In this document: piece by piece, positions 25,547 to 40,967 of the stretch | Layout of the letters: every line of letters begins with the position of its first letter | How positions within the stretch are numbered: position 1 is the stretch's first letter | Notes under the pieces: generated by a model | Seen by the model: the letters and a program-made list of their open reading frames with translations, nothing else | Databases searched by the model: none | Told to the model about the DNA's origin: nothing | Position numbers and translations under genes: made by a program | Assembly (NCBI GenBank): GCA_041223685.1 | Contig: JBCLQR010000015.1 | DNA: 64,000 bases | Source: Lachnospiraceae bacterium 62-26 | GTDB lineage: Bacteria > Bacillota > Clostridia > Lachnospirales > Lachnospiraceae | Reading direction: 5' to 3' (one strand)

Positions 25547-25748
25547 GGAAATGGGAAGTTCTGCACTGAGCAGGACTGGCTGACAGGGAGATTAAAAGCA
25601 CGCAGATTTTGCGTGCTTTTATGATAAAATACTACAAAATATGTGTTGACACGCAGGCATATATTCTGTATATTAGGATATAGAGAAAATGCGTAAAAAT
25701 TAGGAAGAACAGCTTGTAAACAGGTATAGGCCGCAGAGGGACAGCAAG

Positions 25749-26691: not shown

Positions 26692-26714
26692 ATAAGTACC
26701 TAAGGAGACAGGGT

Positions 26715-28526
26715 ATGTTCCATAGTATGAGAAGTAAGATGATCCTGGCAATGCTTGTGGTGACAGGCTGTGCGGTAGTTCTGGTTACCGCGATGTTCTA
26801 TCAGAGATCTGCCGGGATGATAGAAGAGGATTACGTGGAGAACCTCTATGGCAGGCTCCGTCAGATGGGCGATGCGCTGGACGAATCCTTAAAGGAGATC
26901 TATTTTCTCACGGTACAGGCTTCCTGTGATGAGAAGATTCTTGCAGGAACGGAAGCTTATCTTTCTGAGGGTGAGGAACAGAACCTGACGGAGCTTGCAA
27001 AGATGCTTCGGGATTATTCCGGAAGACACAGCGAGGCAGGGTGCTTCTATCTGGTGATTCCTGAAAAACGGATGATCGTGACGTCTCTGGAGTATCCGGT
27101 ATATCACAAGGAGATATCGGAGGAGAAGCTTGATGAGATTGAGAAGACGGGGACGGCCTCCCTTACACCGGCGCTTATCAAAGATCCGCTGAGGGAACAG
27201 GATCATATCCTGGTATTTGTAAGCCCGGTGGAGGCGGATAACGGCGGGATATGTGCTTATGTTATGAGTTGCCTGAAAGAACGGACGCTGTATTATAATT
27301 ACCTTGATAATCTGGAAGGCGGAGAAACCTCGAGGGCGGCGCTTCTGGATGAGAATGGAAGGATCGTATCAGCGAAGCGTCTGGAACATGTGGGCATGTA
27401 TTATCCGGCAGAGCAGGAGCAGGGTTATGCCGGGACGCAGAAGGACCGTGAGGGACAAAAAAGCAAGGACGGCCGGGATATGATCTTCGTACAGTATCGG
27501 GCTGATTTCTCCGGATATTCGTTTCTGCTGGAGCGGGAGAAGAATGAAGTGTTAGCCGACTTAAGAGAGATACGCTCTTATCTGGCAGTGATTCTCCTGG
27601 CGGTCCTTGGATGTGTGGCGGTTCTGATGGTTGTGATCACGAAAGCCATGTATCAGCCCTTAAAGCGCCTGACAGAGACGATGGGGCAGGTAAGCAGGGG
27701 CGGACTGGAATGTCGTGTGGAAGTGACGACAAAGGATGAGATCGGCCTCCTGTCCGGTGAATTCAATGATATGCTGGACCATATTGAAGATCTGATCGGC
27801 CGGCTTTTGCAGGAGGAAATGCTGAAAAAAGATGCGGAGCTTGAGGCGCTTCAGTATCAGATCACGCCTCATTTCATGTACAATACACTGAATTCCATCA
27901 AGTATGCCGCGCTGTTAAAGGGCGAGGATGAGATTGGCGGTCTGCTTGAGGATTTTATAGAGCTTCTTCAGGCAAGTATCAATAAGAAGGGAAAGTTCGT
28001 TACTGTTGCGGAGGAGATCCATTTTCTTAAGAACTACATGAACTTGTAGCGTATGCGCTATGAAGAGGAAATCGTGGTTGATTACCAGATACAGCAGGAG
28101 GCTTATGCCTGTTTCCTTCCAAGGCTGATGCTCCAGCCGCTTGTGGAGAATGCGATCCTGCACGGGCTTGATCTGAGAGGCAAAAGGAACAGGATCGTGA
28201 TCGGCGGAGACGTAGAGGAGGGCCGGCTAAAGCTGTGGGTACAGGATTACGGCAGAGGAATGTCACAGGAGCAGATAGCGCGTCTCTTACAGGAGACGCA
28301 CAAGAAGGAGAAGGGGCTGTCCGGAATCGGCGTGGCGAATGTGAAGGAACGTCTGCGGCTGTATTATGGTGACGCCGGGCATGTGACGTGTGTAAGCAGT
28401 GACGCAGGTACGAAGATCTGTATGTACCTGCCTGCATACAGGGAGCAGAACCAGTATGCACTGTATGGGTTTGATATGCAGAAGGAAAAGGAGCAAGGAT
28501 ATGATCAGAACGGTGATTGTGGATGA
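26715..28526 (+). pseudogene. YesM-like sensor histidine kinase interrupted by an in-frame TAG
   Basis: N part (to 28049) has 2 TM + HAMP + His_kinase signature LQYQITPHFMYNTLNSI; TAG at 28047-28049; same frame continues RMRYEEE.. with HATPase_c (LQPLVENAILHGL, DYGRGM, GLSGIGVANVKERL) to 28526; a CAG codon at the stop position would give the family-typical ..NLQRMRY.. Confidence 0.6.
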
Positions 28527-30147
28527 TGATTTCCTGGTGCGCAGTTATCTGAGACAGCTTAAAGCGTGGGAACGGGCGGATTATCAGATCGTGGCCGATG
28601 CAAGGGACGGCGAGGAGGCGCTTACGGCTGTGGAGGAGCTGGGGCCTCAGGTGGTGATCACGGATATTTCCATGCCTTTGATGGACGGTATCGAGCTGAT
28701 TAGAAGAATACGGGAGACAAATCGTACCGTATATATTATCGTACTCAGCTGTCACGATGACTTTGAATATGTGAGAGAGGCCATGAAGCTTGGAGCCGAT
28801 GAATATGTACTGAAGAATTCACTGAATGAAGACAGCCTGTATGAGATGCTGGTCCATACGGCCGGACAGCTTAAGGACAGGAGGGCGCAGTTTCAGGAAA
28901 ATGATGAGACAAAGCGGTTGGTGGAGATGGGAAGGCAATCGCTGAAATATCATTTCTTCAACGGACTGCTTGCGGGCAGTTTAACCGCTAAGGAGCGGGA
29001 GAAGAGAAGGAAAGAGGCAGGGATCCATGCGAAATATACCAACAGTGCGGTGATCAATCTGTTCATACCTTCCTGGGGGATGCTGAAATATCAGTACAGC
29101 GGACTGGAGCTGGAGCAGTACGGACAGAGATTCTTACGAAAGCTGATCAGAGGGCTGGAACGCAGGGCAGAGGATATCTCTCTTGAAGCTTCGAACGGGA
29201 CAAGAGAGATACGGGGGAGGGATTCGCCCGGGAAAGAGATGGAATGCGTGGAATGTGTATATCTGGGAGAAGGGGTTTTCTGCTGTTTCCTGGATATGTC
29301 GGGACTGTATCGGGACAGCCTGATGAGGCAGAAGCTGACGAGCGCCGCCACGGCGTGCTATCGCTGTTGTAAAGATGAGGAGCATACTTTTTTTGTAGGC
29401 GTGAGCGGTATCTGCTTTGGAGAAGAGGGAATCCGTCAGGCATATCAACAGGCAAGAGAGATGCTGAGGCTTGGCTTTTATGAGGACGCCGGGATCCTGT
29501 ATTATGAGGATTGTCCGGGGATCGGAAGGGTTCTGCCGGGGGAGGCTCAGGAGCTTCTGGATCATGCGGCGGATTATGTGGAATGCCGGCCGTATGAGGA
29601 CATGAGAGCGGAATTTGAGAAGGTATCGTCGGTTTTTTGTAAGGAGCATACAGATCCCCGTCTGATCCTGCACTGGCTCAGGGAGCTGGATCAGCGGCTG
29701 AAGGTTGAACGGCCGCAGGAGGAGTATGCCGGGATCATCAAGATCGAACAGCTTATGTCTGCGTGTGACGCCTACAAGCCGAAGTGGTTTCTGTTGCAGA
29801 AAAAACCGCTGCCAAAGGAAGTAAGCTCGGCTGTGCGCCGGGTGGTGGAGTATCTCCATACCCATTATAAGGAACCGATCGGGCTTGCGGATGCGGCAGA
29901 GACGGCGGGACTGAATCCGGCATATTTAAGCTTCCTGTTCAAGCAGGAGCTGGGAACGGGGTTTTCCTCCTACCTCCTTGATCTGAGAATGGAGTGCGCC
30001 AGGGCTTTGCTTCGGGGCACGAATGAAAAGATAAAGGAGGTGGCAAGAGAAGCAGGATTCAACGACTATCATTATTTTTCCAAGGCATTCAAGAAGATCA
30101 ACGGATGCAGTCCGGTGGATTACCGGAAGAATCATATTAAGGTCTAA
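28501..30147 (+). CDS. YesN-like two-component response regulator with AraC-type DNA-binding domain
   Basis: Start ATG 28501 (MIRTVIVDDD, RBS AAGGAGCAAGG) overlapping the kinase 3' end; REC domain with DISMPLMDG; C-terminal AraC HTH (..GFSSYLLDLRMECARALL..FNDYHYFSKAFKK). Confidence 0.85.
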   Translation: MIRTVIVDDDFLVRSYLRQLKAWERADYQIVADARDGEEALTAVEELGPQVVITDISMPLMDGIELIRRIRETNRTVYIIVLSCHDDFEYVREAMKLGADEYVLKNSLNEDSLYEMLVHTAGQLKDRRAQFQENDETKRLVEMGRQSLKYHFFNGLLAGSLTAKEREKRRKEAGIHAKYTNSAVINLFIPSWGMLKYQYSGLELEQYGQRFLRKLIRGLERRAEDISLEASNGTREIRGRDSPGKEMECVECVYLGEGVFCCFLDMSGLYRDSLMRQKLTSAATACYRCCKDEEHTFFVGVSGICFGEEGIRQAYQQAREMLRLGFYEDAGILYYEDCPGIGRVLPGEAQELLDHAADYVECRPYEDMRAEFEKVSSVFCKEHTDPRLILHWLRELDQRLKVERPQEEYAGIIKIEQLMSACDAYKPKWFLLQKKPLPKEVSSAVRRVVEYLHTHYKEPIGLADAAETAGLNPAYLSFLFKQELGTGFSSYLLDLRMECARALLRGTNEKIKEVAREAGFNDYHYFSKAFKKINGCSPVDYRKNHIKV

Positions 30148-30288
30148 AGAAAAGACAACTTTTATCTGACCAGAAAGCAACAAACCTAAAATAATTACAG
30201 TTTTTTTAGACCTGCGGGTATGGTATATTTTTTATAGAAAAGCAAGAGAAGAGAAGAAGAGTGGATATAGAGAAAGGAGAGTCAAGAG

Positions 30289-31188
30289 ATGTTTGACAAG
30301 AACAAAGTAAAACTTGGAATTGCGCCCATTGCATGGACGAACGACGATCTGCCGGATCTGGGAGGAGAGAACACATTTGAGCAGTGTGTCAGTGAGATGG
30401 CGCTGGCCGGATTTACGGGATCGGAGGTAGGAAACAAGTATCCTAAGGATCCGGAAGTCCTGAGGAAGGCTTTGGAGCTTAGAGGGATTGAGATCTGTAA
30501 TCAGTGGTTCTCCTCTTTCCTGATCACGAAGCCGTTTGAAGAGGTGGAGAAGGAGTTCCGTGCACAGCTTACATTCTTAAAGGCCATGGGAGCGAAGATC
30601 ATCGGCGCTTCTGAGCAGAGCCACAGTGTGCAGGGACAGCAGGATACGCCGATCTTCGGGCATAAGTATGTGATGAACGACGAAGAGTGGAAGACCTTCT
30701 GCGACGGCATGAACCGTCTTGGCAAGATTGCGAAGGAGGAGTACGGGATTGCCCTTACCTTCCATCATCATATGGGAACCGTGGTACAGAACCCGGATGA
30801 GGTGGAGCGCATGATGGAGAACACGGATCCGGAATATGTAAGCCTGCTGTTTGATACGGGGCATTTTACATACTGCGGGGCTGATCCGCTTGAGATGGTG
30901 ACCAAGTATGTGGACAGGATCAAGCATGTCCACCTGAAGGATATCCGTCCGGAGGTAGTAGAGAAGGTCAAAGCAGAGAACTTAAGCTTCCTTGAAGGTG
31001 TAAGGATGGGAACCTTTACGGTGCCGGGAGACGGATGCATTGATTTTGATCCTATTTTCAAGGTTCTTGAGGATCACAATTATGAAGGATATATGCTGGT
31101 AGAGGCGGAGCAGGATCCGGCGAAGGCGAATCCGTTAGAGTATGCCGTTAAGGCAAGGAAGTTTATCGCAGAGAAGACAGGGCTTTAA
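30289..31188 (+). CDS. iolE: IolE-like (myo-inosose-2 dehydratase family) xylose-isomerase-like TIM-barrel protein, paralog 1
   Basis: 299 aa; N-terminal [37 protein letters not shown] and internal [15 protein letters not shown] motifs typical of the IolE family. Confidence 0.75.
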
Positions 31189-31212
31189 ACCAGAGAAGAC
31201 AGGGCTTTAAAC
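31169..31212 (+). repeat. Perfect 22-bp tandem duplication spanning the iolE-like stop codon
   Basis: CAGAGAAGACAGGGCTTTAAAC at 31169-31190 repeated exactly at 31191-31212. Confidence 0.8.
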
Positions 31213-31274
31213 CGGCGCGGAAAGATTGCCGGTAAGTGATACAGTCACATAAACAGGAAGGAGATAAGAAGATT

Positions 31275-32288
31275 ATGGTTACAGTAGGTATTATCGGAGC
31301 AGGAAGAATCGGAAGAGTTCACGTGGAGAGCATTTGTACAAAGGTGGGCAATGCAAAGATCAAGGCCCTTGCGGATCCGTTCATGAACGAGGAGACAGAA
31401 CTCTGGGCAAAGAAGATGGGTGTGGAGAAGACGACGAAGGATTACAAGGAGATCCTTGCAGATCCTGAGATCGATGCAGTGCTGATCTGTTCCTCCACAG
31501 ATACACATTCACCAATCTCTGTAGAGGCGATCCAGGCAGGAAAGCATGTATTCTGCGAGAAGCCGATCGACCATGATGTGGCGAAGATCAAGGAGGTTAT
31601 AACTGCGCTTGAGAAGAACCAGGTGAAATACCAGGTAGGCTTCAACCGCAGATTCGACCACAACTTTGAGGCGGTAAGAGATGCGGTGGCGGCAGGCAGG
31701 ATCGGAGATACACATATCATCAAGATCACATCCAGAGATCCGGAGCCGCCGTGTGCAGACTATGTGAAGGTATCAGGCGGAATGTTCCTGGATATGACCA
31801 TCCATGATTTCGATATGGTGCGTTTCCTTGCAGGATGCAATGCAACAGAGGTTTATGTAGAGGCAGCGGTCCTTGTGGATCCGGCGATCGGAGAAGCAGG
31901 AGACGTAGATACGGCAGTGATCACGCTCAAGATGGAGAACGGCGCGATCGCAGTTATTGATAATTCAAGACAGGCCGTATATGGATACGACCAGAGAGCG
32001 GAAGTATTTGGCTCTAAGGGAATGGTGGCAACGGGAAATGACACTGCAAGTGCCGCAGTGATCAGTAACGTGGACGGCGTGACTGGAGAGAAGCCGCTTC
32101 ACTTCTTCCTGGAGCGTTATATGGATGCATATGCGAAGGAGATTAAGTGCTTTATCGAGGCAATCGAGAATGATTCTGAAACTCCTCTTGGAGTGGAGGA
32201 CGGATTGCAGCCGGTACTGATGGGACTTGCGGCGAAGAAGTCCTTGGAGGAGCATCGTCCGGTGAAGATCTCTGAGATCAGCGCGTAA
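31275..32288 (+). CDS. Gfo/Idh/MocA family NAD-dependent inositol dehydrogenase paralog (IolX/IolW-like)
   Basis: Start ATG 31275 (MVTVGIIGAGRIGRVH, RBS AAGGAGATAAGAAG); Rossmann GxGxxG, conserved EKP motif (VFCEKPI) and GFNRRFD. Confidence 0.8.
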   Translation: MVTVGIIGAGRIGRVHVESICTKVGNAKIKALADPFMNEETELWAKKMGVEKTTKDYKEILADPEIDAVLICSSTDTHSPISVEAIQAGKHVFCEKPIDHDVAKIKEVITALEKNQVKYQVGFNRRFDHNFEAVRDAVAAGRIGDTHIIKITSRDPEPPCADYVKVSGGMFLDMTIHDFDMVRFLAGCNATEVYVEAAVLVDPAIGEAGDVDTAVITLKMENGAIAVIDNSRQAVYGYDQRAEVFGSKGMVATGNDTASAAVISNVDGVTGEKPLHFFLERYMDAYAKEIKCFIEAIENDSETPLGVEDGLQPVLMGLAAKKSLEEHRPVKISEISA

Positions 32289-32377
32289 TCCGAGTGAGCA
32301 GTAGTTTTCTCGTTAATTTTCACACCCTTCGCCGATCACACAGCTGATTGAGTGGAGCCGATATAAGATACACATCC

Positions 32378-32425
32378 AACGGGACTGCCCCTGGCCGAAG
32401 ACGGCTTTTAACGGGCAGTCCCGTT
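32378..32425 (+). terminator. Long hairpin after the dehydrogenase gene (possible terminator or attenuator)
   Basis: 13-bp stem AACGGGACTGCCC / GGGCAGTCCCGTT with 22-nt loop, followed by only a weak T tract (TATAATTCTC). Confidence 0.35.
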
Positions 32426-32575
32426 TATAATTCTCAACTGCATAGAATAAAAGCTATATAGAATCCGGCGGGGATTTGCTTCTATTTTTATAAGGTGATA
32501 TAATAGACCTTGACTTTCGGGAGACACTACATCAGAAGGATATGTGCAGTCTGCCCGCAGCAGGGAGGGAAGGAT

Positions 32576-33604
32576 ATGGCAGTAACCTTACAACAGATCG
32601 CAGAAGCGGCCGGAGTCTCCAGAGGAACGGTAGACCGGGCTTTGAACAATAGAGGAAGAATCAATGCGGAGGTGGCGGACAGGATCCGGAGAATCGCAGA
32701 TGAGATGGGATATCAGCCCAACCGGGCGGGCAGGGCGCTGGCGATGTCGAAACGGTCGATCACCATAGGCGTGCTTATCCAGGCGGCGGAGACGCCGTTT
32801 ATGGAGAATGTCATTGAGGGCGCAGAGGATGCCAAGGCAGAGGTAGAGCGTCTCGGCGCGGATGTGATCATCCGCAGGATGGAGGATTTTGATGCCGGGA
32901 AGGCGGTTGAGGCGATGTATGAGCTTAAGAAGGCGGGATGCAACGGGATCGCCATGATCCCGGTGGACGACGGGGAGCTTAAGGAGACGGTCAACAGATT
33001 CGCCGATGAGAATATACCGGTGATCACGTTTAACTCGGATATCGAAGAGTCGAAGAGGCTCTGCTTTGTGGGGCAGGATACTTACCAGAGCGGAAGAGTG
33101 GCGGCGGGCCTGATGGCCGATATTCTCCCGGCAGACGGGAAGGTACTTGTCATATCAGGATATCCGACCAGTTACGGACATAAGAACCGGACAAAAGGAT
33201 TTCTTGGAGAATTTGCGGCGCTCAGGGAGGATGTCCGGGTACTGGATGTACAGTATGATTTTGACGACGACCATATGGCGGAGATGATCACGAGGGGAAT
33301 GCTTAAGGAGTACGAGGATCTGTCCGGCATCTATCTTGCGGCGTCCGGGGTAGAGGGTGTGTGTAAGGCGCTTAAGGATTTTGGCATGGAAGAGAAGGTG
33401 AAGGTGATCTCTAATGACCTGACTGCCCGGAACGTGCAGTATCTTAGGGAGGGGAAGATCCGCTTCCTGATCGGGCAGGACGGTTACCGCCAGGGGTATG
33501 AGCCGGTCATGCTGTTATTTGAGAAGATTTTTGACGGCAAAGAACCAGAGAAAGAATATGCCTACACGGAGATTGTGATCAAGACCAGGTATAATCTTGT
33601 ATAG
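32576..33604 (+). CDS. LacI family transcriptional regulator
   Basis: Start ATG 32576 (MAVTLQQIAEAAGVSRGTVDRALNN, RBS GGGAGGGAAGGA); N-terminal HTH plus periplasmic-binding-protein-like sugar-binding core. Confidence 0.85.
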   Translation: MAVTLQQIAEAAGVSRGTVDRALNNRGRINAEVADRIRRIADEMGYQPNRAGRALAMSKRSITIGVLIQAAETPFMENVIEGAEDAKAEVERLGADVIIRRMEDFDAGKAVEAMYELKKAGCNGIAMIPVDDGELKETVNRFADENIPVITFNSDIEESKRLCFVGQDTYQSGRVAAGLMADILPADGKVLVISGYPTSYGHKNRTKGFLGEFAALREDVRVLDVQYDFDDDHMAEMITRGMLKEYEDLSGIYLAASGVEGVCKALKDFGMEEKVKVISNDLTARNVQYLREGKIRFLIGQDGYRQGYEPVMLLFEKIFDGKEPEKEYAYTEIVIKTRYNLV

Positions 33605-33648: not shown

Positions 33649-33670
33649 ATTGCGTTCACGTGAACGCAAT
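33649..33670. promoter_or_regulatory. 22-bp perfect palindrome ATTGCGTTCACGTGAACGCAAT, candidate LacI-type operator upstream of the iolG-like gene
   Basis: Perfect inverted repeat about 70 nt upstream of the 33740 start; same 18-bp core recurs at 34776-34793. Confidence 0.5.
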
Positions 33671-33739
33671 GATAAAATAACAACATAAAGAAACAAAGTC
33701 ATGAGAAACATATAAAAAGCAGGAAAGGTGGAAAACAAA

Positions 33740-34744
33740 ATGTTAAGAGTAGGAGTTATCGGTTGCGGCGGAATGGGAAGAGACCATATCAGGAGGATCA
33801 CAGAGAGGATTCAGGGAGCTGAGGTTGTGGCAGTATCAGATGTATTTGAAGAGGGTGCGAAGAAGGCGGCAGAGATTGCCGGAGGAGCCAGGGTATATAC
33901 GGACGGCAAAGCACTGATCAATGATCCGGAGGTTGACGCGGTTCTGATTGTTTCACCCGGATTTGCGCATGTAGAGGATCTTCTTGAGGCAATTAAGGCC
34001 GGCAAGCGAGTATTCTGCGAGAAACCGCTCTGTACAACAGCGGAGGACTGCAAGAAGGTTATGGACGCGGAAGAGGCATCCGGCAGGCATCTGATCCAGT
34101 TAGGATTCATGCGCCGTTACCACAAGGGATACAACCAGATCAAGGATGCGATTGCCACAGGAGAGTACGGCGAACCGCTGATGATGCACTGTACGCACAG
34201 GAATCCTGAGGTGGGGACAAATTACAACACGCCGATGGCAGTACATGATACCGTGATCCATGAGATTGATCTCTGCCACTGGCTGGTAGATGATGATTAT
34301 GAGAGCGTACAGGTGATCATGCCGAAGGTTACCAAGTACTCACATTCAGAGCTTAAGGATCCTCAGATCATGCTGATGCGCACGAAGAGCGGTATCTGCA
34401 TTGACGTAGAGTGCTTCGTGAACTGCAAGTTTGGCTATGATATCAACTGCGAGGTTGTATGTGAGGACGGCGCTCTTAAGATGGGAGCTCCGATGGCTCC
34501 GTCTATCCGTAAGAATGCGGCGGCTTCTACAGAGATCACGACAGACTGCTTCGTACTGTTCAAGGATGCATATGACGCGGAGATCCAGAACTGGGTAGAT
34601 TGTGCAAAGAAGGATGTGATTGAAGGGCCGACCACGTGGGACGGATATCTGGCGGCAGTTACAGCGGATGCGCTGGTGAAGGCTCAGGAAACGGGGAATA
34701 TCGAGAAGGTTGTAACGGTTGAGAAGCCGGAATTTTATAAGTAA
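33740..34744 (+). CDS. iolG: myo-inositol 2-dehydrogenase-like (IolG-type) Gfo/Idh/MocA oxidoreductase
   Basis: Start ATG 33740 (MLRVGVIGCGGMGRDH; the track start 33728 is a GTG); VFCEKPLCTTAEDC, QLGFMRRYH, GEPLMMHCTHRNP resemble the B. subtilis IolG pattern. Confidence 0.8.
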   Translation: MLRVGVIGCGGMGRDHIRRITERIQGAEVVAVSDVFEEGAKKAAEIAGGARVYTDGKALINDPEVDAVLIVSPGFAHVEDLLEAIKAGKRVFCEKPLCTTAEDCKKVMDAEEASGRHLIQLGFMRRYHKGYNQIKDAIATGEYGEPLMMHCTHRNPEVGTNYNTPMAVHDTVIHEIDLCHWLVDDDYESVQVIMPKVTKYSHSELKDPQIMLMRTKSGICIDVECFVNCKFGYDINCEVVCEDGALKMGAPMAPSIRKNAAASTEITTDCFVLFKDAYDAEIQNWVDCAKKDVIEGPTTWDGYLAAVTADALVKAQETGNIEKVVTVEKPEFYK

Positions 34745-34775
34745 TACTAAGGCAGGAGATTATTTTTTCAGGCAA

Positions 34776-34793
34776 TGCGTTCACGTGAACGCA
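34776..34793. promoter_or_regulatory. 18-bp palindrome TGCGTTCACGTGAACGCA, second copy of the candidate operator
   Basis: Identical core to the 33649-33670 site, about 40 nt upstream of the 34832 start. Confidence 0.5.
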
Positions 34794-34831: not shown

Positions 34832-35665
34832 ATGAAATTAGGATTTAACGAGGCAACAGCGCTGGAGTGTAAAGGGCAGTCCCTGCTTGCAGATATGGAG
34901 GCATGTGAGAAGTATGGTTTTGATTATATAGAGATTAGATTTGACTGTGTAAAGGATTATCTGAAGGAGCATACGTTAGAGGACCTGGCAGACTGGTTTA
35001 AGAATCATCATCTGAAGCCGTGGGCGTATAACACGCTGATTTTCTTTAACCAGAGAGATGAAGCGGGTGTGAAGGAGATTGATGAGGAGACCGATTTTAT
35101 CATCGAGGTATGCAGGGCGATCGGGATGAAGATGCTGATCACGGTTCCGCAGTTTGATGTAAAGGATAAGAGCGTGTCCGAGATTAAGGAGGAGGCTGTG
35201 GAAAGACTTCGCTATCTGTCCGACAAGGTTGGCTCTGACATCAGGATTTCCCTGGAGTTCTGCGGCGCTCCTAACTGTTCCATCAATCAGTTTGGGACGG
35301 CGTATGACGTAGTGAAAGCGGTAGACAGAGAGAATGTGGGAATTACGGTTGATACCTTCCATTTCCATGAGATGTGTTCTAAGATCGAGGATCTTAAGAA
35401 GGCTGACGGCAGAAAGATTTTCGCATATCACCTGAATGACTGCGAGGATCTGCCTCTTGGTTCCTGCGGCGATGACAAGAGACTGTGGCCGGAAGAGGGT
35501 GTGGTCGATCATGCGGCGATTGCCGGCGCGCTGAAGGAGATTGGATTCGACGGAGTGTGCACGATAGAGGAATTCCGTCCGGAGTATTATGCAATGTCTC
35601 ATGAGGAGAATGTGAAGAAGGCGGCAGAGGTAACGAAGGCATTTGTAGAGAAATATTTCGGCTAA
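34832..35665 (+). CDS. Sugar phosphate isomerase/epimerase, xylose-isomerase-like TIM barrel (IolI/inosose-isomerase-like)
   Basis: 277 aa; AP-endonuclease-2/xylose-isomerase TIM-barrel pattern (..DYIEIRFD.., ..VDTFHFHE.., ..YHLNDCED..). Confidence 0.75.
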   Translation: MKLGFNEATALECKGQSLLADMEACEKYGFDYIEIRFDCVKDYLKEHTLEDLADWFKNHHLKPWAYNTLIFFNQRDEAGVKEIDEETDFIIEVCRAIGMKMLITVPQFDVKDKSVSEIKEEAVERLRYLSDKVGSDIRISLEFCGAPNCSINQFGTAYDVVKAVDRENVGITVDTFHFHEMCSKIEDLKKADGRKIFAYHLNDCEDLPLGSCGDDKRLWPEEGVVDHAAIAGALKEIGFDGVCTIEEFRPEYYAMSHEENVKKAAEVTKAFVEKYFG

Positions 35666-35702: not shown

Positions 35703-36599
35703 ATGTTAGATAAGAATAAAGTTTCACTTGGTATAGCGCCGATCGGATGGACGAACGACGATATGCCGGACCTGGGGAAAGAGAATACATTTGAACAGAC
35801 GGTAAGCGAGATGGCGCTTGCAGGATTTACGGGATCAGAGGTGGGCAGCCATTATCCTGCGGATCCGGCAGTGCTAAAGAAAGCGCTGGATCTGAGAGGA
35901 ATGACGATCTGTAATCAGTGGTTTTCTTCTTTCCTGATCAGCAGACCGTATGAAGAGACGGAGGAAGCATTTATTAAGCAGTGCGATTTTCTGAAAAAGG
36001 TGGGTGCAAGGTGCATCGGCGTGTCCGAGCAGAGCTTCAGCATCCAGGGAATGACGGACCATCCGATCCAGGAGGGCAAATATGTCATGAATGATGAGGA
36101 GTGGGATCTGCTTACGGGGGGCCTCAACAGGCTTGGAAGGATTGCGAAGGAGAAAGGAATGGTACTTACCTTCCATCATCATATGGGAACGGTTGTGCAG
36201 ACGGAGGAGGAGATAGACCGGTTCATGGCATCTGTGGATCCCGAACTTGTATTCTTGTTGTTTGACAGCGGACACTTGTCGTTTGCAGGGATAGATCCGG
36301 AGAAGGTGCTGAGAAAATATGTGGACCGTGTGCGTCATGTCCACCTGAAAGATCTGAGGAAGCGTGTTGTGGAACAGTCGCGCAATGAGAAATGGAGTTT
36401 CCTGAAAGGAGTGCGCGAGGGAACGTTTACCGTGCCCGGCGACGGGGATGTGGATTTTGCACCGATTTTTAAGATCCTTGAAGAGGCTGATTACAGAGGA
36501 TGGGTAGTGGTAGAGGCGGAGCAGGATCCGGCGAAGGCAAACCCGCTTGAGTACGCTCTTAAGGCAAGAAAGTATATTGCAAAGCATACGGGCTTATAG
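35703..36599 (+). CDS. iolE: IolE-like (myo-inosose-2 dehydratase family) TIM-barrel protein, paralog 2
   Basis: 298 aa; same family motifs as 30289..31188 ([37 protein letters not shown]; LTFHHHMGT; HVHLKD). Confidence 0.75.
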   Translation: MLDKNKVSLGIAPIGWTNDDMPDLGKENTFEQTVSEMALAGFTGSEVGSHYPADPAVLKKALDLRGMTICNQWFSSFLISRPYEETEEAFIKQCDFLKKVGARCIGVSEQSFSIQGMTDHPIQEGKYVMNDEEWDLLTGGLNRLGRIAKEKGMVLTFHHHMGTVVQTEEEIDRFMASVDPELVFLLFDSGHLSFAGIDPEKVLRKYVDRVRHVHLKDLRKRVVEQSRNEKWSFLKGVREGTFTVPGDGDVDFAPIFKILEEADYRGWVVVEAEQDPAKANPLEYALKARKYIAKHTGL

Positions 36600-36641: not shown

Positions 36642-37541
36642 ATGAAGATAGCATTCGATGTAGATGTATTGGCGAAGCAGATGGGTATTAATGATATGGT
36701 TCATCAGGTTGCGGACTGGGGTTACAAATATATTGAGCAGTCCCCGCACCCGCGTATCAACCCGTTCTACAAGCATCCGTTGTTTTCTAAAGAGTGTGAG
36801 GCGGAGTATAGAAAGGCTCTTCGCGAGACAGGTGTGGAGATCTCCTCTTTTATCGTTGTATACCGCTGGTCCGGTCCGACAGAGGAGCAGCGGCAGATGG
36901 CGGTGGCAAACTGGAAGCGGATGGTTGAGATTGCAGTAGATATGGGAGTACAGGTGATCAACACGGAGCTTTCCGGCGACCCCAATCAGCAGGAAATCTG
37001 CAATGGTATGTGGTTCCGCTCTATGGATGAACTGCTGCCGTTGTTTGAGAAGGAAGGGATCCGTGTAGAGATACAGTCACATCCGTGGGATTTCTGCGAG
37101 TTGAATAATGAGACCTGCGATATGGTGAAGAGTTATCGTTCCGATAATCTGAAATATGTATATTCTTCCCCGCACGGTTTCTTCTACGACAAGGGCGCGG
37201 GCGATGTCCGTTCGATGCTCAAGTACGCGGGCGATGATCTGAGCCATGTATTATTTGCAGATACGTACAACCAGACCAAGGATTGCAGATATATCCTGAA
37301 TCCGCCGTGGCTTAACAGTATGGGAAGAGAAGATGTTTCCATTCATCAGCATAATCCGATGGGAGAAGGGGATGTGGATTTTGACGGGATCTTCGAGACG
37401 CTGAGAGAGATGGATTTTGCAAACAGACAGTTTAAAGCAGGCGGAGACGCAATCTCCTGTGTATCTATCTTCGGATATCCGGAGCGCATGGCGGTTGAAG
37501 CTCCAAAGGCAAGAGAGATCATTGAGCGTGAATTATTATGA
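36642..37541 (+). CDS. Sugar phosphate isomerase/epimerase family TIM-barrel protein
   Basis: 299 aa; xylose-isomerase-like fold pattern; stop overlaps the next gene start (ATGA at 37538-37541). Confidence 0.7.
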   Translation: MKIAFDVDVLAKQMGINDMVHQVADWGYKYIEQSPHPRINPFYKHPLFSKECEAEYRKALRETGVEISSFIVVYRWSGPTEEQRQMAVANWKRMVEIAVDMGVQVINTELSGDPNQQEICNGMWFRSMDELLPLFEKEGIRVEIQSHPWDFCELNNETCDMVKSYRSDNLKYVYSSPHGFFYDKGAGDVRSMLKYAGDDLSHVLFADTYNQTKDCRYILNPPWLNSMGREDVSIHQHNPMGEGDVDFDGIFETLREMDFANRQFKAGGDAISCVSIFGYPERMAVEAPKAREIIERELL

Positions 37542-39661
37542 AATCAGCGGCGGAATTACTGAATTATAAACAAAAGAATAAAGATATGGATGAGTTCATC
37601 AGGGTGCCCGTGTCTGAAAAGCTGGCGTACTGCTTCGGCGATCCGGCTTTGACGCTGATGTATACGATGACAACCACACTTCTGATCTACTTCTATACCA
37701 ATGTGGTTGGTATTTCGGCAGGATCGGTCGGAATGATCATGCTGGTGTCCCGCGTGTTCGACGGCTTCTCGGATGTGTTGATGGGAACCATTATAGACCG
37801 GACTCATTCCAAATACGGGAAATCCAGAATATGGATCTTACGGCTGGCGGTTCCTTATGCGTTAGCGGCAATTATCCTTTTTACGATGCCGGGCATGGGG
37901 CCGAAGGGGAAGATTGTATATGCGTTTGTGACTTATAATATCATGAATACGGTTGTATATACGGCGATCAGCCAGCCGTTCCATGCTCTGGGATCCCTGA
38001 TGAGCCGTGACAGGAGAGAGCGCGATGTAATCTGTAATATCCGTATGGTACTGTCCATTACGGCGAGCATGGTCATCACGGCATTCACGCTTCCGCTGAT
38101 CAATAAGACTGCGGGCATCATCCATCATGAACAGGCGGCGTGGATCCTCGTTACGGCTGTGTATGCCGTCATCTCAGTGTTCGTACTGCTGAACACCTAT
38201 GCGACATGTACCGAGCGTGTACAGACAGCCCAGAAGAGCAAGGAGGATATCCCGTTCTGGATGGCGCTTAAGGCTACGGTGACGAATCCGTATTTCCTGA
38301 TCGCGCTGGGGCTGATGCTGTTCTATACGGTGTATCAGATCATTATAGGGACGGATCTTACATATTATTGTCAGTATGTATTGAATGATGTGGATCTGGT
38401 CATGCCGTTGTCGGCTTCCGAGAAGATTGCAACTATCATCGGAATCGCCCTGCTTCCGAAGCTTCTTCCCAAATTCGGAAAACGAAATCTGATCTGTGCG
38501 GGATGTATTCTTGGCGTTGCCGGGCAGCTCATCTTCCTGATGAATGTTACAAGCGTTCCGTTAGGAGTTGTTACGTGTATTATGAGGGGATTCGGAATCG
38601 CCCCATTCTATGGTGTACAATATTCGCTGCCAAGTGATGCCATTGAATATGGCCAATGGAAGACAGGGCTTAGGATCGAGGGGCTGATGTTCTCATCCAT
38701 GAGCATGGGGCAGAAGGCCGGTTCGGGATTCACGTCTGCTATTATGGGTGCAATCCTCTCTATGGCGGCATTCGACGGACTGAAAGCGACGGCGGCTGAA
38801 CAGACAGCAGAAGCGATTGCGGTGATCAAAGGGTTCTATCTCTATGTACCGATCGCAATCTGGATGATTATGTTCCTGATTGCTCTGTGCTATAAGCTTG
38901 ATAAGAAATATGACCAGATGATGCGGGATCTGATCGCGCGGGAAAGCAAAGCGGAGCATACGGAAAGCGGGCGTGATGATACAGAGCTTATCGGGCAGAA
39001 TGATCACTTAAGCAGATTTAACGCAGACAACCAGGCCGTTGATTGGAAGCAGGGGCAGATTAATATCGCGATCGGGCGGCTCTATGGGGCAAGTGGAAGA
39101 AAGATTGCGGAAGCACTTGCAAAGGAGCTTGGATGCCGGGTGTATGACCGGCAGATCATCTGTATGCTGGGCGAGAAATTCGGAATGGAGACAACGGATA
39201 TCGAGAAGCTTAAGCGGTATCTGGATTCCTATAATGAAGGACGGCAGGTAACGTTCTCCCCTTATTCCATGCCGGGCGCCGGGGTTGCGGAGGATATTAT
39301 AGACACGCAGGTATTTGAAGAGCAGAGCCGGCTGATCATGAAGCTTGCGAAGACGGCGCCGGGAGTCTTCCTCGGACGTTGTGCGAACTTCTTATTGGCG
39401 GAGCTTCCTCACACCTATTCCTTCTTCATCTATGCGGATGATGAATACAGGGAAAGAGAAGGACGGGAATATTACCAGGGACAGACGCTTGAGAAGCTGA
39501 AAGAGCGTGATGAGAAGAGGAGTGAATATTATCTGCGGTACACCGGCACGAAGCGGGACGATCCAGGATGCTATGATATGGTCATCAACGTAAGCAGGAC
39601 GGGCGTTGCCGGCGCGGTGCAGGTGATTATGGATTATATTAAGAAGAAAGAGGAAGAATAG
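37538..39661 (+). CDS. GPH-family sugar:cation symporter fused to a C-terminal cytidylate-kinase-like (Cytidylate_kin2) P-loop domain
   Basis: 707 aa single ORF; residues 1-470 are a 12-TM MelB-like transporter (..YTNVVGISAGSVGMIMLVSRVFDGFSDVLMG..RTHSKYGKSRIWIL); residues 515-707 (INIAIGRLYGASGRKIAEALAKELGCRVYDRQII..) match the standalone cytidylate-kinase-like family. Confidence 0.7.
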   Translation: MKSAAELLNYKQKNKDMDEFIRVPVSEKLAYCFGDPALTLMYTMTTTLLIYFYTNVVGISAGSVGMIMLVSRVFDGFSDVLMGTIIDRTHSKYGKSRIWILRLAVPYALAAIILFTMPGMGPKGKIVYAFVTYNIMNTVVYTAISQPFHALGSLMSRDRRERDVICNIRMVLSITASMVITAFTLPLINKTAGIIHHEQAAWILVTAVYAVISVFVLLNTYATCTERVQTAQKSKEDIPFWMALKATVTNPYFLIALGLMLFYTVYQIIIGTDLTYYCQYVLNDVDLVMPLSASEKIATIIGIALLPKLLPKFGKRNLICAGCILGVAGQLIFLMNVTSVPLGVVTCIMRGFGIAPFYGVQYSLPSDAIEYGQWKTGLRIEGLMFSSMSMGQKAGSGFTSAIMGAILSMAAFDGLKATAAEQTAEAIAVIKGFYLYVPIAIWMIMFLIALCYKLDKKYDQMMRDLIARESKAEHTESGRDDTELIGQNDHLSRFNADNQAVDWKQGQINIAIGRLYGASGRKIAEALAKELGCRVYDRQIICMLGEKFGMETTDIEKLKRYLDSYNEGRQVTFSPYSMPGAGVAEDIIDTQVFEEQSRLIMKLAKTAPGVFLGRCANFLLAELPHTYSFFIYADDEYREREGREYYQGQTLEKLKERDEKRSEYYLRYTGTKRDDPGCYDMVINVSRTGVAGAVQVIMDYIKKKEEE

Positions 39662-39677
39662 CTGATAAAAATCCGAT

Positions 39678-39734
39678 ATTGCGTATGTATAGCTTCCGCG
39701 GGGGTTAGACCGCCAGAGCTTTTACATACGCAAT
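39678..39734. terminator. Long-loop hairpin between convergent genes (possible bidirectional terminator)
   Basis: 12-bp stem ATTGCGTATGTA (39678-39689) / TACATACGCAAT (39723-39734) enclosing a GC-rich 33-nt loop. Confidence 0.35.
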
Positions 39735-39761
39735 CTCGAAAAAGTTCAGAATGGAACATGA

Positions 39762-40967
39762 TCATGCCTGCGGTTGTATATCGGAGGCATATCTGTCATA
39801 GTATAGTGATGATTCATCTTCAGTGAGACCAAAATGTTTTTGCAGTTTCATAAGGATTCTTCCCTTGGGGATCTGCTCGTCCAGGTTGTCTAGAATTAAT
39901 GCCTGTATGCCTTCTTCTTTGGCAATCCTGGCTTGTGCTTTAGCGTCCATAGCTTCTTTTTTAATAATTTCAGATTCCTTTTTAATAATTTCAGCTTCTT
40001 CCATAACAATTTCGGCTTCTTTTCTGGCGATTTCAGCCTTTTCTTTAACAATTTCAGCTTCTTTTCTGGCGATTTCAGCTTCCGCTTTAATAGCCTCAAC
40101 TTCTTTCTGGACAGATTTTAGAGCATCATCCCGAACTCCTGCGTGTACGACCTGCTCCAGGCTGCTCATCTGCGTAACCTCCCTCCACAATTCCGCATTG
40201 GCAGAGAAATCGATATATTCTGTTACTGTTGACATAAAGTCCTCTTTATGCGGATACATAATTGCATTCAGGAAACGAAAAAGGTCATATCCATCGTCTT
40301 CCTTACCCCCATTATACACCTCATTGCCTAATTTGATAACTACTAATGTCATCAGATCGTAGTTTTCTCTGGCCACGGAGCCGGGCGAGGTATTCCTGGT
40401 GTTGGTCGTCTCGTAAACGGAAATACTATAGCAGTCCTTCTTTGGGATATCATCCCGGCAGATAAAGATGCTGTAGCATTTGGAGAGAAGGTTGTAATCC
40501 GTGCCTTCATAGGCCAGTGACAGCTGGGAGGACAAACGGCGTGCAAGATAGTAAAATCCCCGCTTTTCAATCGGGTAACCTGGTTTATACGTCTTCTGCG
40601 GTTCCAGATCGATATGCAGGTTGATCTGGATATCTTCTGTAGAGAGCTGGGGATTCCGGGCCTGAAAGGCCAGATCAAAGTTAGTTGTTTTCTCATTGAG
40701 ATGAATGAATTCGGTGTTGCCGCAGCTGACTTTGGTGTTACTCCTTCCCGGCGATACTTCCGTGGTGTTGGTAATGGAATCCGGAACAATAAATTCTTGT
40801 ACTTCCTTTAAACTATATCCTTTGTATTCTGAGACGGTTCCTTTCAAGATAACTGCCAGCACCTCCAAGTGGCGCAGGATTGTTTTGCTTGGAGCGTCCT
40901 TACCGGCCGTGTCTGCGGTAGTCTGCAAAGCGCTAAGGGCAGCAATGCTTCCCTGAAGCTTATCCAT
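39762..40967 (-). CDS. Rpn family recombination-promoting nuclease/putative transposase (PD-(D/E)XK, YhgA-like)
   Basis: 401 aa; N-terminal nuclease-like region, central acidic heptad-like repeats (KEAEIARKEAEIVKEKAEIARKEAEIV), C-terminal ..LILDNLDEQIPKGRILMKLQKHFGL.. tail as in Rpn/Transposase_31 proteins. Confidence 0.6.
   Translation of the reverse strand: MDKLQGSIAALSALQTTADTAGKDAPSKTILRHLEVLAVILKGTVSEYKGYSLKEVQEFIVPDSITNTTEVSPGRSNTKVSCGNTEFIHLNEKTTNFDLAFQARNPQLSTEDIQINLHIDLEPQKTYKPGYPIEKRGFYYLARRLSSQLSLAYEGTDYNLLSKCYSIFICRDDIPKKDCYSISVYETTNTRNTSPGSVARENYDLMTLVVIKLGNEVYNGGKEDDGYDLFRFLNAIMYPHKEDFMSTVTEYIDFSANAELWREVTQMSSLEQVVHAGVRDDALKSVQKEVEAIKAEAEIARKEAEIVKEKAEIARKEAEIVMEEAEIIKKESEIIKKEAMDAKAQARIAKEEGIQALILDNLDEQIPKGRILMKLQKHFGLTEDESSLYYDRYASDIQPQA
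40007..40090. repeat. Two tandem 42-bp units (plus degenerate flanking copies) inside the Rpn-like gene
   Basis: CAATTTC(G/A)GCTTCTTTTCTGGCGATTTCAGC.. repeated at 40007-40048 and 40049-40090; encodes the EAEIxRKEAEI peptide repeats. Confidence 0.7.

What the first reader, a model, noticed from the sequence alone, without database searches (positions are those of the whole stretch)
33649..34793. Two copies of a perfect palindrome (TGCGTTCACGTGAACGCA) in front of two operons of the cluster: candidate operator of the local LacI regulator
ATTGCGTTCACGTGAACGCAAT (22-bp perfect, 33649-33670) sits about 70 nt upstream of the iolG-like gene, and the same 18-bp core recurs at 34776-34793, about 40 nt upstream of the TIM-barrel/iolE2/transporter operon. 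Both lie directly downstream of the LacI-family regulator gene (32576..33604). Two identical perfect palindromes within 1.1 kb are very unlikely by chance and define a small regulon.
Basis: seen in the sequence. Interest (0 to 1): 0.5.

Follow-up and report, generated by a model that had tools for sequence, protein, structure and literature searches.

The report
Two operators of an inositol-cluster repressor
Two identical 18-bp palindromes next to a LacI-type regulator gene in a gut Lachnospiraceae genome are very probably that regulator's binding sites, switching off an inositol-utilisation gene set; this is an ordinary, well-behaved bacterial repressor/operator pair that had not been described for this group.

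Summary
TGCGTTCACGTGAACGCA occurs exactly twice in the window, at 33651-33668 and 34776-34793. Nothing else matches even at 3 mismatches (0.02 expected).

- In 80 genome loci chosen only by homology to the adjacent LacI protein, there are 44 sites at 3 mismatches or fewer, against 0 in shuffles.
- 21 of 29 homologues of the first downstream gene carry such a site within 350 nt upstream. That gene resembles B. subtilis IolG.
- The site is locked into a promoter. A T before it gives a -35-like TTGCGT, and a TATAAT-like box follows 4 nt after it (17-nt spacer) in 18 of 23 genomes. A bound dimer would therefore occlude RNA polymerase.
- Departures from the palindrome are almost never compensated, so it is a protein site and not an RNA hairpin.

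The second site lies in the spacer between the IolG-like and IolI-like genes. It is conserved only in the closest clade, and its role (internal promoter operator or roadblock) is unresolved.

The regulated genes encode an IolG-like dehydrogenase, an IolI-like isomerase, an IolE paralogue, a TIM-barrel protein and a GPH transporter. The effector is unknown and binding is untested.

This is a new member of a known kind (LacI-family inositol regulons) and of modest interest.

The parts
32576..33604 (+). LacI-family regulator gene (342 aa): an N-terminal LacI HTH plus a Peripla_BP_4 effector domain. It is the presumed repressor.
   Evidence: Pfam PF00356 1.4e-12 and PF13407 6.6e-50. The HTH GVSRGTVDRAL and the hinge residues N49, A51, G52, L55 and A56 are invariant in 17 homologues of 54-89% identity.
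32476..32504 (+). Putative promoter of the regulator gene itself: TTGCTT, 17 nt, TGn plus TATAAT. It carries no operator.
   Evidence: Read by eye. No motif match in 32289-32575. Inference only.
33649..33670 (.). Operator O1: a perfect 22-bp palindrome, ATTGCGTTCACGTGAACGCAAT (18-bp core 33651-33668).
   Evidence: PWM score 37.7 bits. The position is conserved upstream of IolG-like genes in 21 of 29 foreign loci.
33650..33678 (+). Putative promoter P1 overlapping O1: -35-like TTGCGT (33650-33655), a 17-nt spacer, TG at 33670-33671, and -10 TAAAAT (33673-33678).
   Evidence: Sequence. The same geometry holds in other genomes: T before the palindrome in 20 of 23, a -10-like hexamer exactly 4 nt after it in 18 of 23, and at least 5 of 6 matches to TATAAT in 17 of 23. 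The consensus scanner missed it because the -35 matches only 3 of 6.
33740..34744 (+). B. subtilis-type IolG-like inositol dehydrogenase (334 aa), the first regulated gene.
   Evidence: PDB 3mz0 (inositol 2-dehydrogenase/D-chiro-inositol 3-dehydrogenase) E 6.7e-119. NCBIfam NF052679 scores 468 bits, below the 540 cut-off.
34776..34793 (.). Operator O2: an 18-bp core identical to that of O1, in the 87-nt spacer between the IolG-like and IolI-like genes.
   Evidence: PWM score 33.5 bits. Degenerate copies (2-5 mismatches) sit at the same place only in the clade whose LacI is at least 62% identical.
34758..34769 (+). Weak -10-like box (GATTAT or TATTTT) and T-run, 9-12 nt upstream of O2. This is a possible internal promoter.
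   Evidence: A -10-like hexamer lies 7-12 nt before the site in 7 of 8 relatives. The sequence is AT-rich, so this is only suggestive.
34832..35665 (+). IolI-like inosose isomerase (277 aa).
   Evidence: PDB 1i60 (B. subtilis IolI) E 6.3e-84 over the full length. Pfam AP_endonuc_2.
35703..36599 (+). IolE paralogue (myo-inosose-2 dehydratase).
   Evidence: TIGR04379 scores 413.9 bits against a cut-off of 290.
36642..37541 (+). Xylose-isomerase-like TIM-barrel protein of unknown specificity.
   Evidence: Pfam PF01261 1.7e-37. No PDB relative by sequence.
37538..39661 (+). GPH-family symporter fused to a C-terminal cytidylate-kinase-like domain (707 aa). It is the last gene of the unit and overlaps the previous gene by 4 nt.
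   Evidence: TIGR00792 312 bits, PF13347 and PF13189.

Best explanation
The two palindromes are operators of the adjacent LacI-family repressor (32576-33604).

Proposed mechanism:
- A repressor dimer binds each 18-22-bp site. The invariant recognition helices (GVSRGTVDRAL) read the outer arms TGCGT/ACGCA. The hinge helices (NRAGRALA, with Leu55 equivalent to LacI Leu56) insert at the central CpG.
- O1 covers the -35 hexamer and the spacer of the promoter of the IolG-like gene (TTGCGT, 17 nt, TGnTAAAAT). Bound repressor therefore excludes RNA polymerase.
- O2 lies 1,125 bp downstream, in the spacer before the iolI-like/iolE/TIM-barrel/GPH-transporter genes. It gives a second point of control, either as the operator of a weak internal promoter (operator about +5 to +25) or as a roadblock to read-through from P1.
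- An inositol isomer or an early pathway intermediate presumably binds the Peripla_BP_4 domain and releases the protein.
- In this genome the regulator gene has its own operator-free promoter, so it is not autoregulated. In relatives of 47-64% identity a third site sits 14-21 nt before the regulator's start codon.

Shown here: the sites, their statistical significance, their conservation, the promoter geometry, and their linkage to the LacI gene and the iolG/iolI genes.

Inferred: actual binding, repression rather than activation, dimeric state, the function of O2, and the effector.
For: Significance:
- Two exact copies in 64 kb, with 0.02 expected even at 3 mismatches.
- 44 sites at 3 mismatches or fewer in 1.26 Mb of LacI-selected loci, against 0 in five shuffles.

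Linkage:
- Sites lie upstream of 21 of 29 IolG-like homologues next to LacI homologues in Dorea, Blautia, Anaerostipes, Butyricicoccus, Agathobaculum and Oscillibacter.
- They also lie upstream of the cluster's transporter genes (SSF symporter) and of the regulator gene itself.
- In a motif-first metagenome scan, 48 of 91 low-GC loci carry a cluster gene within 450 nt.

Promoter geometry: -35-like TTGCGT and a -10 box at a fixed 17-nt spacing in 18 of 23 genomes.

Not an RNA structure: only 3 of 37 departures from the palindrome are compensated on both sides.

Family hallmarks: an even palindrome with central CG, lying 38 and 71 nt from the start codons, as described for more than 1,100 LacI-family regulators (PMC4052901).

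Protein and site vary together. A paralogue group with a different hinge (PNQLGRALS), next to iolG1/iolE1, has the same arms but a different centre (xTCGGxx). Homologues with no hinge helix have no such site.

A weight matrix from foreign sites picks out only these two positions in the window.
Against: - There is no binding or expression data for this organism.
- L167 has the motif before the same genes with an IclR-family regulator and no LacI gene within 13 kb.
- 8 of 29 IolG-like homologues lack a site at 3 mismatches or fewer directly upstream. In two of these (L025, L029) a site lies 0.4 kb before the LacI gene, further upstream on the IolG-like gene's strand; in L029 an ORF of the SSF-symporter size class lies between it and the IolG-like gene.
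- In Anaerostipes rhamnosivorans a cluster with the same gene order and identical protein lengths (AR1Y2_1056-1059) shows no difference for IolG and the isomerase between myo-inositol and rhamnose cultures (fold 1.06-1.09). Strains that have it but lack another IolG cannot use chiro-inositol (PMC8355322). The inducer is therefore not evidently myo- or chiro-inositol.
- O2 has no convincing -35 box, and its -10-like box is in AT-rich sequence.
- The identical 18-mer is used in a ParB-linked context elsewhere. The sequence alone therefore does not identify the binding protein.
Confidence: 0.8

Rival explanations
1. The palindromes are operators, but of a different transcription factor encoded elsewhere. 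The adjacent LacI gene would be linked only by gene neighbourhood.
For: L167 carries the motif before the same genes with an IclR-family regulator in the cluster and no LacI gene in 13 kb. L164 shows no LacI gene within 6.8 kb on one side.
Against: A LacI homologue is present within a few kb of the motif in almost all loci with enough flank. The site has the LacI-family signature of an even palindrome with central CG. The centre of the site changes with the hinge sequence of the paralogue. No other regulator is shared across the loci.
Confidence: 0.07
2. The LacI-family protein binds the sites but acts as an activator, or as a co-repressor-dependent regulator like PurR or CcpA, rather than as an inducer-released repressor.
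For: Some LacI-family members bind DNA only with a ligand (PurR, per PMC4052901). The probable Anaerostipes counterparts are abundant both with and without inositol.
Against: O1 occupies the -35/spacer region of the promoter in 18 of 23 genomes, a position that is incompatible with activation. The regulated genes are catabolic, and for such genes inducer-released repression is the rule in this family (PMC4052901).
Confidence: 0.06
3. The palindromes act as RNA hairpins (terminator, attenuator or processing signal) in the transcripts of the LacI gene and the IolG-like gene.
For: Each folds into a 7-9-bp hairpin (-11.9 kcal/mol, z = -3.2 for site 1). Both lie just after stop codons.
Against: No U-run follows either hairpin, and the terminator scan does not call them. 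Across genomes, changes on one arm are not compensated on the other (3 of 37); common variants such as TGCGTTCTCGTGAACGCA break the pairing. The site keeps a fixed register with the -35 and -10 boxes. It also occurs upstream of divergent genes, where it would not follow a stop codon.
Confidence: 0.03
4. The sites are parS-like centromere sites, or sites for a ParB/Noc-type protein.
For: The inner 10 bp, TTCACGTGAA, equal the core of canonical parS, TGTTNCACGTGAAACA (own knowledge). In high-GC metagenome contigs the identical 22-mer precedes a ParB-family gene (L131: ParB_N 7.8e-19, HTH_ParB 8e-13). Arrays of close variants also occur there.
Against: Over a 16-bp frame the site has 6 mismatches to parS, and the window has no parS at 3 mismatches or fewer. 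No ParB gene was found among the annotated neighbours. Conservation follows the iol promoters and the LacI gene across genomes.
Confidence: 0.02

Closest known systems
LacI/GalR-family repressor-operator pairs (LacI, PurR, and the RegPrecise LacI-family regulons of Ravcheev et al. 2014, PMC4052901, which include seven non-orthologous 'IolR' groups for inositol)
   Same: The regulator has an HTH_LacI domain plus a periplasmic-binding-protein fold. The operator is an even palindrome of 18-22 bp with a central CG. The sites lie 38-71 nt before start codons and beside the regulator gene. The targets are sugar or cyclitol catabolism and transport genes.
   Different: The half-site TGCGTTCAC is unlike the common TGnAAnC type. 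The effector domain scores as Peripla_BP_4 and is closest to ABC-transporter binding proteins in the PDB, not as the usual Peripla_BP_1/3. Lachnospiraceae does not appear in the text of that survey. I could not query RegPrecise itself.
Bacillus subtilis IolQ (DegA), the LacI-family repressor of iolX (PMC5504672)
   Same: It is a LacI-family repressor of an inositol dehydrogenase gene. It has two binding sites of different affinity at one locus, placed downstream of the transcription start.
   Different: The IolQ sites are AGAAARCGCTTKCK, close to the cre consensus, and unrelated to TGCGTTCACGTGAACGCA. IolQ sites lie at +4 to +30 and +68 to +88, whereas O1 here overlaps the -35 box and spacer. 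Orthology to IolQ was not tested.
Bacillus subtilis iolG / iolI / iolE functions (PDB 3mz0, 1i60)
   Same: The regulated genes are close sequence relatives: E 6.7e-119 to IolG, E 6.3e-84 to IolI, and IolE above the NCBIfam cut-off.
   Different: According to the Anaerostipes paper's supplementary table, the canonical IolR of the myo-inositol operon is a DeoR-family repressor. Here the genes form a separate module with a GPH transporter under a LacI-type regulator. No iolB, iolC or iolD was found among the larger window ORFs scanned.
CcpA cre sites
   Same: A palindrome with a central CG, bound by a LacI-family protein in Firmicutes.
   Different: The half-site does not fit TGWAANC. There is no cre match in 32.3-35 kb. 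The only match in the window at 1 mismatch is inside a gene and is at chance level.
parS / ParB
   Same: They share the inner 10 bp, TTCACGTGAA. The identical 22-mer precedes a ParB-family gene in unrelated high-GC contigs.
   Different: The outer positions differ (6 of 16). The context is catabolic promoters, and the site is linked to a LacI gene.

Membership tests
LacI-family operator | Even-length palindrome (16-22 bp) with a central CG | tested here: met
   18-bp and 22-bp perfect palindromes centred on C33659/G33660 and C34784/G34785. The central CG is invariant in 23 foreign sites. The criterion comes from PMC4052901.
LacI-family operator | Located in a non-coding region, typically 30-140 nt upstream of the start codon of the regulated gene | tested here: met
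   The core ends 71 nt and 38 nt before the ATGs at 33740 and 34832. Both sites are intergenic.
LacI-family operator | A cognate LacI-family regulator (HTH_LacI plus sugar-binding domain, with a hinge helix carrying the intercalating Leu) is encoded in the genome, usually adjacent | tested here: met
   PF00356 and PF13407 in 32576-33604. The hinge NRAGRALA with L55 is invariant. It aligns to LacI residues 4-148.
LacI-family operator | The site is conserved upstream of orthologous genes in genomes that carry the orthologous regulator (phylogenetic footprint) | tested here: met
   21 of 29 IolG-like homologues have a site at 3 mismatches or fewer. There are 44 sites against 0 in shuffles.
LacI-family operator | Specific binding of the purified regulator, released or enhanced by a small-molecule effector | not testable with these tools
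   Needs EMSA or footprinting. The effector is unknown.
IolQ (B. subtilis) regulon | Operator matching AGAAARCGCTTKCK | tested here: not met
   The window motif shares no half-site with the IolQ footprint sequences quoted in PMC5504672.
IolQ (B. subtilis) regulon | Regulator orthologous to IolQ/DegA | not tested
The NCBIfam hits are all far below their cut-offs.
cre / CcpA site | Match to WTGNAANCGNWNNCW / TGWAANCGNTNWCA | tested here: not met
   No match at 1 mismatch or fewer in the region.
parS (ParB centromere site) | Match to TGTTNCACGTGAAACA | tested here: not met
   No match at 3 mismatches or fewer in the window. Over 16 bp, the sites differ from parS at 6 positions.
Intrinsic terminator | GC-rich hairpin followed by a U-run | tested here: not met
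   A hairpin can form, but the tails are AUGAUAAAAU and AAUGAACCCG. The terminator scan does not call either site.
Structured RNA element | Compensatory base changes that keep the stem | tested here: not met
   Only 3 of 37 departures are compensated on both sides.

The most novel reading that the evidence does not exclude
The regulator belongs to a family of paralogous Peripla_BP_4-type LacI switches in gut Clostridia. All keep one recognition helix (GVSRGTVDRAL) and the same operator arms (TGCGT...ACGCA). They are kept apart from one another only by the central 8 bp, which the hinge helix reads: CACGTG-type centres with the hinge NRAGRALA, and xTCGGxx centres with the hinge NQLGRALS. Each paralogue would gate a different inositol-isomer module. 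This would be a compact natural example of operator specificity being re-coded through the hinge rather than the recognition helix.
Probability: 0.25. Interest if true: 0.45.

Novelty: new member of a known kind. Interest (0 to 1): 0.3.

Why it matters
It gives a testable operator, promoter and regulon for an inositol-isomer module. That module is widespread in gut Lachnospiraceae and Oscillospiraceae, groups in which inositol fermentation to propionate and acetate has been linked to host health (PMC8355322).

The consensus TTGCGTKCWCGWGMACGCAA, embedded in a -35/-10 frame, can be used in three ways:
- to annotate these clusters in metagenomes;
- to correct generic names such as 'novel xylose regulator';
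- to build an inducible expression switch for these hard-to-engineer anaerobes once the effector is known.

It does not change how LacI-family regulation is understood.

Tried and rejected
- Consensus promoter/terminator scan. It called nothing at either site, because the -35 box (TTGCGT) matches only 3 of 6. The promoter was recognised only from the cross-genome alignment.
- cre/CcpA site: no match.
- parS: no match.
- RNA hairpin or terminator: a hairpin is possible, but there is no U-run and no covariation.
- Repeat or mobile element: only the 18-25 bp are shared between the two copies, and there are no other copies.
- Autoregulation in the window: no site upstream of 32576.
- More regulon members in the window: none. 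No iolB, iolC or iolD among the larger window ORFs scanned.
- Literature search for the motif string: 0 papers.
- PDB sequence search for the second TIM-barrel protein: nothing.
- Genome-wide regulon: not possible.
- DNA looping between O1 and O2: considered unlikely. The centres are 1,125 bp apart, and the protein ends right after the binding-protein fold with no extra C-terminal segment for tetramerisation. This is an inference.
Full report
**1. Observation**

The sequence shows ATTGCGTTCACGTGAACGCAAT at 33649-33670, a perfect 22-bp palindrome. The same 18-bp core, TGCGTTCACGTGAACGCA, recurs at 34776-34793. A search allowing up to 3 mismatches finds only these two positions in the 64-kb window; 0.02 are expected, and none of 100 shuffles gave two. 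The repeat finder reports the pair as 25-nt arms at 92%.

**2. Genes around the sites**

| Coordinates | Product | Evidence |
|---|---|---|
| 24164-30147 | GPH transporter, a binding-protein-like sensor, a histidine kinase and an AraC-type response regulator | Pfam |
| 30289-31188 | IolE | TIGR04379, 428 bits |
| 31236-32288 | IolG | TIGR04380, 477 bits |
| 32576-33604 | LacI-family regulator | HTH_LacI plus Peripla_BP_4 |
| 33740-34744 | Dehydrogenase very close to B. subtilis IolG | PDB 3mz0, E 6.7e-119 |
| 34832-35665 | Close relative of B. subtilis IolI, inosose isomerase | PDB 1i60, E 6.3e-84 |
| 35703-36599 | Second IolE | 414 bits |
| 36642-37541 | TIM-barrel protein | No solved relative by sequence |
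| 37538-39661 | GPH symporter fused to a cytidylate-kinase-like domain | Pfam, NCBIfam |

None of the other larger window ORFs that were scanned is an iol gene. The organism is a Lachnospiraceae close to Dorea; the regulator is 89% identical to a Dorea sp. 5-2 protein.

**3. Comparative test, regulator first**

I aligned 17 homologues of the regulator (54-89% identity). With that alignment I fetched 80 genome loci from different species, with 10-kb flanks. The motif played no part in this selection.

- These loci total 1.26 Mb and hold 44 sites within 3 mismatches of the palindrome. Five shuffles each gave none.
- All sites lie in or beside the cluster.
- Of 29 homologues of the IolG-like gene in these loci, 21 have such a site within 350 nt upstream, and 23 do at 4 mismatches or fewer.
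- In two of the eight without one (L025, L029), a site lies about 0.4 kb before the LacI gene, further upstream on the IolG-like gene's strand; in L029 an ORF of the SSF-symporter size class lies between it and the IolG-like gene.
- The loci come from Dorea, Blautia, Anaerostipes, Bilifractor, Coprococcus, Butyricicoccus, Agathobaculum, Oscillibacter and unnamed Clostridia.
- The consensus is TTGCGT[T/G]C[A/T]CG[T/A]G[A/C]ACGCAA, with the central CG and positions 5, 7, 12 and 14 invariant.
- A weight matrix made from these foreign sites scores the two window sites at 37.7 and 33.5 bits, and nothing else in the window above -3.3.

**4. Comparative test, motif first**

- Among the 91 loci with G+C below 0.58, 48 have a homologue of a cluster gene within 450 nt of the site. 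Many of the rest are short contigs.
- Among the 28 high-GC loci, only 1 does.
- For the exact window palindrome, 10 of 16 loci are cluster-linked. The other six are high-GC contigs of a different kind (see section 10).
- In a collection of this size some unrelated 18-mer matches are expected. I could not compute that expectation because the size of the collection in bases is not given.

**5. Where the site sits**

I anchored the upstream regions on the palindrome and found a fixed architecture.

- The base before the palindrome is T in 20 of 23 foreign sites, which makes TTGCGT.
- The best TATAAT-like hexamer starts exactly 4 nt after the palindrome in 18 of 23. It matches TATAAT at 5 or 6 positions in 17 of 23.
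- TG precedes that hexamer by one base in 12 of 23.
- This is a promoter with a -35-like TTGCGT, a 17-nt spacer and, often, an extended -10 box. The operator fills the -35 box and the spacer.
- In the window the elements are TTGCGT 33650-33655, TG 33670-33671 and TAAAAT 33673-33678. Transcription should therefore start near 33685, about 55 nt before the ATG.
- The generic promoter scanner missed this because the -35 box matches TTGACA at only three positions.
- A dimer bound here would block RNA polymerase. This is the classical position for a repressor and is incompatible with activation.

**6. Protein site or RNA hairpin**

The palindrome can fold as a hairpin. However, no U-run follows it, and in the 23 foreign sites only 3 of 37 departures from the palindrome are compensated on the partner arm. 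Frequent variants such as TGCGTTCTCGTGAACGCA or TGCGTTCACGTGCACGCA break the pairing while keeping each half-site close to consensus. That is the pattern expected for two half-sites read by a protein dimer.

**7. The second site**

The spacer between the IolG-like and IolI-like genes carries a recognisable site only in the clade whose regulator is at least 62% identical to the window's: L001, L002, L004, L097, L104, L106, L119, L133, L155, L174 and L183.

- In those relatives the site has 2-5 mismatches. In the window it is perfect.
- In more distant relatives the two genes are 30-110 nt apart with no site, so the ancestral state is one operon under O1. O2 is a later addition.
- In 7 of 8 sequences, O2 is preceded at 7-12 nt by a T-run and a -10-like hexamer (TATATT, TAAATT, TAAAAT; GATTAT in the window).
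- This would put the operator at about +5 to +25 of a weak internal promoter. The sequence is AT-rich, however, and no convincing -35 box exists.
- The alternative is a roadblock to read-through from P1. I cannot decide between the two.
- Looping between O1 and O2 (centres 1,125 bp apart) seems unlikely. The protein ends right after its binding-protein fold, with no extra segment for tetramerisation (inference).

**8. Further regulon members and autoregulation**

- In Butyricicoccus, Agathobaculum and related loci the motif also precedes an SSF-family sodium:solute symporter placed between the regulator gene and the iolG-like gene.
- In some loci it also precedes the GPH transporter or the second TIM-barrel gene.
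- In relatives of 47-64% identity, a site with about 3 mismatches sits 14-21 nt before the regulator's own start codon. The window has none.
- By eye, the window's regulator gene has its own promoter (TTGCTT, 17 nt, TGnTATAAT, 32476-32504) with no operator.

**9. Does the protein vary with the site?**

All retrieved homologues share the recognition helix GVSRGTVDRAL. This is partly forced, because that peptide was one of the two patterns used for retrieval.

- Homologues with the hinge NRAGRALA, or related hinges, and a neighbouring iolG-like gene have centres of the CACGTG or CTCGTG type.
- A paralogue group with the hinge NQLGRALS, next to the other iolG/iolE pair (L005, L012, L014), has the same arms TGCGT...ACGCA but centres such as GTTCGGAC, GCCCGGAA and TTTCGGGC.
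- Homologues whose linker is a Lys/Arg-rich stretch without a hinge helix have no such site.
- The sample is small. The pattern fits established LacI-family structure, in which the recognition helix reads the outer half-site and the hinge helix reads the centre. It ties the motif to this protein family.

**10. What argues against, and what remains open**

- There is no experimental evidence for binding.
- L167 has the motif before the same genes together with an ABC transporter and an IclR-family regulator, and no LacI gene in 13 kb.
- The effector is unknown. Homology to IolG and IolI points to myo- or D-chiro-inositol chemistry.
- In Anaerostipes rhamnosivorans, a cluster with the same order and identical protein lengths exists: AR1Y2_1056 (LacI family, 342 aa), 1057 (IolG, 334 aa), 1058 (inosose isomerase, 277 aa) and 1059 (transporter). 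For 1057 and 1058, protein levels are equal on myo-inositol and on rhamnose (fold 1.06-1.09).
- Strains that have this cluster but lack another IolG do not convert chiro-inositol (PMC8355322). I did not test orthology of that cluster directly.
- The identical 22-mer, again in a TTGCGT-17-TATAAT frame, lies upstream of a ParB-family gene in the high-GC contigs L131 and L196.
- Arrays of the palindrome with CAGCTG-centred variants occur in L105, L108, L156 and L190.
- The inner 10 bp equal the core of parS (own knowledge). A different protein family can therefore use the same sequence.
- For the window this rival fails on three counts: context, 6 of 16 mismatches to parS, and the absence of any parS at 3 mismatches or fewer.

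**11. Comparison with what is known**

- LacI-family regulons for inositol are a known kind. Ravcheev et al. list seven non-orthologous 'IolR' groups. They describe even palindromes with a central CG, located 30-140 nt before the start codon, as the family norm (PMC4052901).
- B. subtilis IolQ is a LacI-family repressor of an inositol dehydrogenase gene with two sites. Its sites (AGAAARCGCTTKCK) are unrelated to this motif and lie downstream of the start point (PMC5504672).
- A full-text search for the motif string found no paper. The large survey of inositol clusters does not mention LacI regulators.
- I therefore file this as a new member of a known kind: a predicted LacI-type repressor with a defined operator and promoter for an iolG/iolI/iolE/transporter module of gut Clostridia.

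**12. Verdict**

My confidence is about 0.8 that these are operators of the adjacent regulator acting as a repressor.
- Interest is modest (0.3). The finding is useful for annotation and as a candidate inducible switch, but not surprising.

Noticed in passing
L131:5366-5387 (minus strand), L196:687-708; also L105:8552, L108:13073, L156:916, L190:17: The exact window palindrome occurs in high-GC (0.64-0.67) metagenome contigs that have no iol or LacI genes. In L131 and L196 it sits in the same TTGCGT-17-TATAAT frame about 75 nt upstream of a ParB-family gene (ParB_N plus HTH_ParB). In the other four contigs it is flanked at about 30-nt spacing by TGCGTTCAGCTGAACGC variants, like a centromere or iteron array. 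Its inner 10 bp equal the parS core.
   Followed up: partly
window 37538-39661: The GPH-family symporter is fused to a C-terminal cytidylate-kinase-like domain (PF13189), giving 707 aa. The same fusion is present in L006, L007, L119, L155 and L183, while other relatives have the transporter alone. The function of the kinase-like domain on a transporter is unexplained.
   Followed up: partly
window 24164-32288: A second inositol module lies directly upstream: a GPH transporter, a Peripla_BP_4 sensor-like protein, a histidine kinase, an AraC-type response regulator, iolE and iolG. It has no copy of the palindrome, so it is presumably under the three-component sensor. A GH36 alpha-galactosidase gene (20110-22377) precedes it, which hints at inositol galactosides such as galactinol as substrates.
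   Followed up: no
L005, L012, L014 (for example L014:11201-11218, L012:2414-2431, L005:1720-1773): A paralogous LacI group (hinge PNQLGRALS), next to the other iolG/iolE pair, has operator-like sites with the same arms TGCGT...ACGCA but a different centre (xTCGGxx). In L014 the site sits in the same -35/-10 frame.
   Followed up: partly
L167:2655-11002: The same motif precedes iolG-like, iolI-like and iolE genes. Here these are followed by an ABC transporter, the second TIM-barrel gene and an IclR-family regulator. There is no LacI gene within 13 kb.
   Followed up: partly
L024, L047 versus the window (transporter and TIM_D genes): The GPH transporter and the second TIM-barrel protein are about 80% identical between the Lachnospiraceae window and the Agathobaculum/Butyricicoccus loci. 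The regulator and the IolG-like protein are only 43-56% identical. This suggests mosaic clusters and lateral transfer of part of the module.
   Followed up: no
window 39762-40967 (minus strand): A 401-aa ORF with no Pfam match contains seven 21-nt tandem repeats (39931-40119), that is, heptad-like peptide repeats. An inverted repeat at 39674-39738 separates it from the end of the operon.
   Followed up: no
Oscillospiraceae loci, for example L040, L082, L102, L146 (5' leader of the iolG-like gene): The leaders are long, 130-260 nt between the operator and the start codon. They contain conserved extra half-site-like elements (GTGCACGCA ... TGCGTGCAT) that could be auxiliary operators or a leader hairpin.
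   Followed up: no
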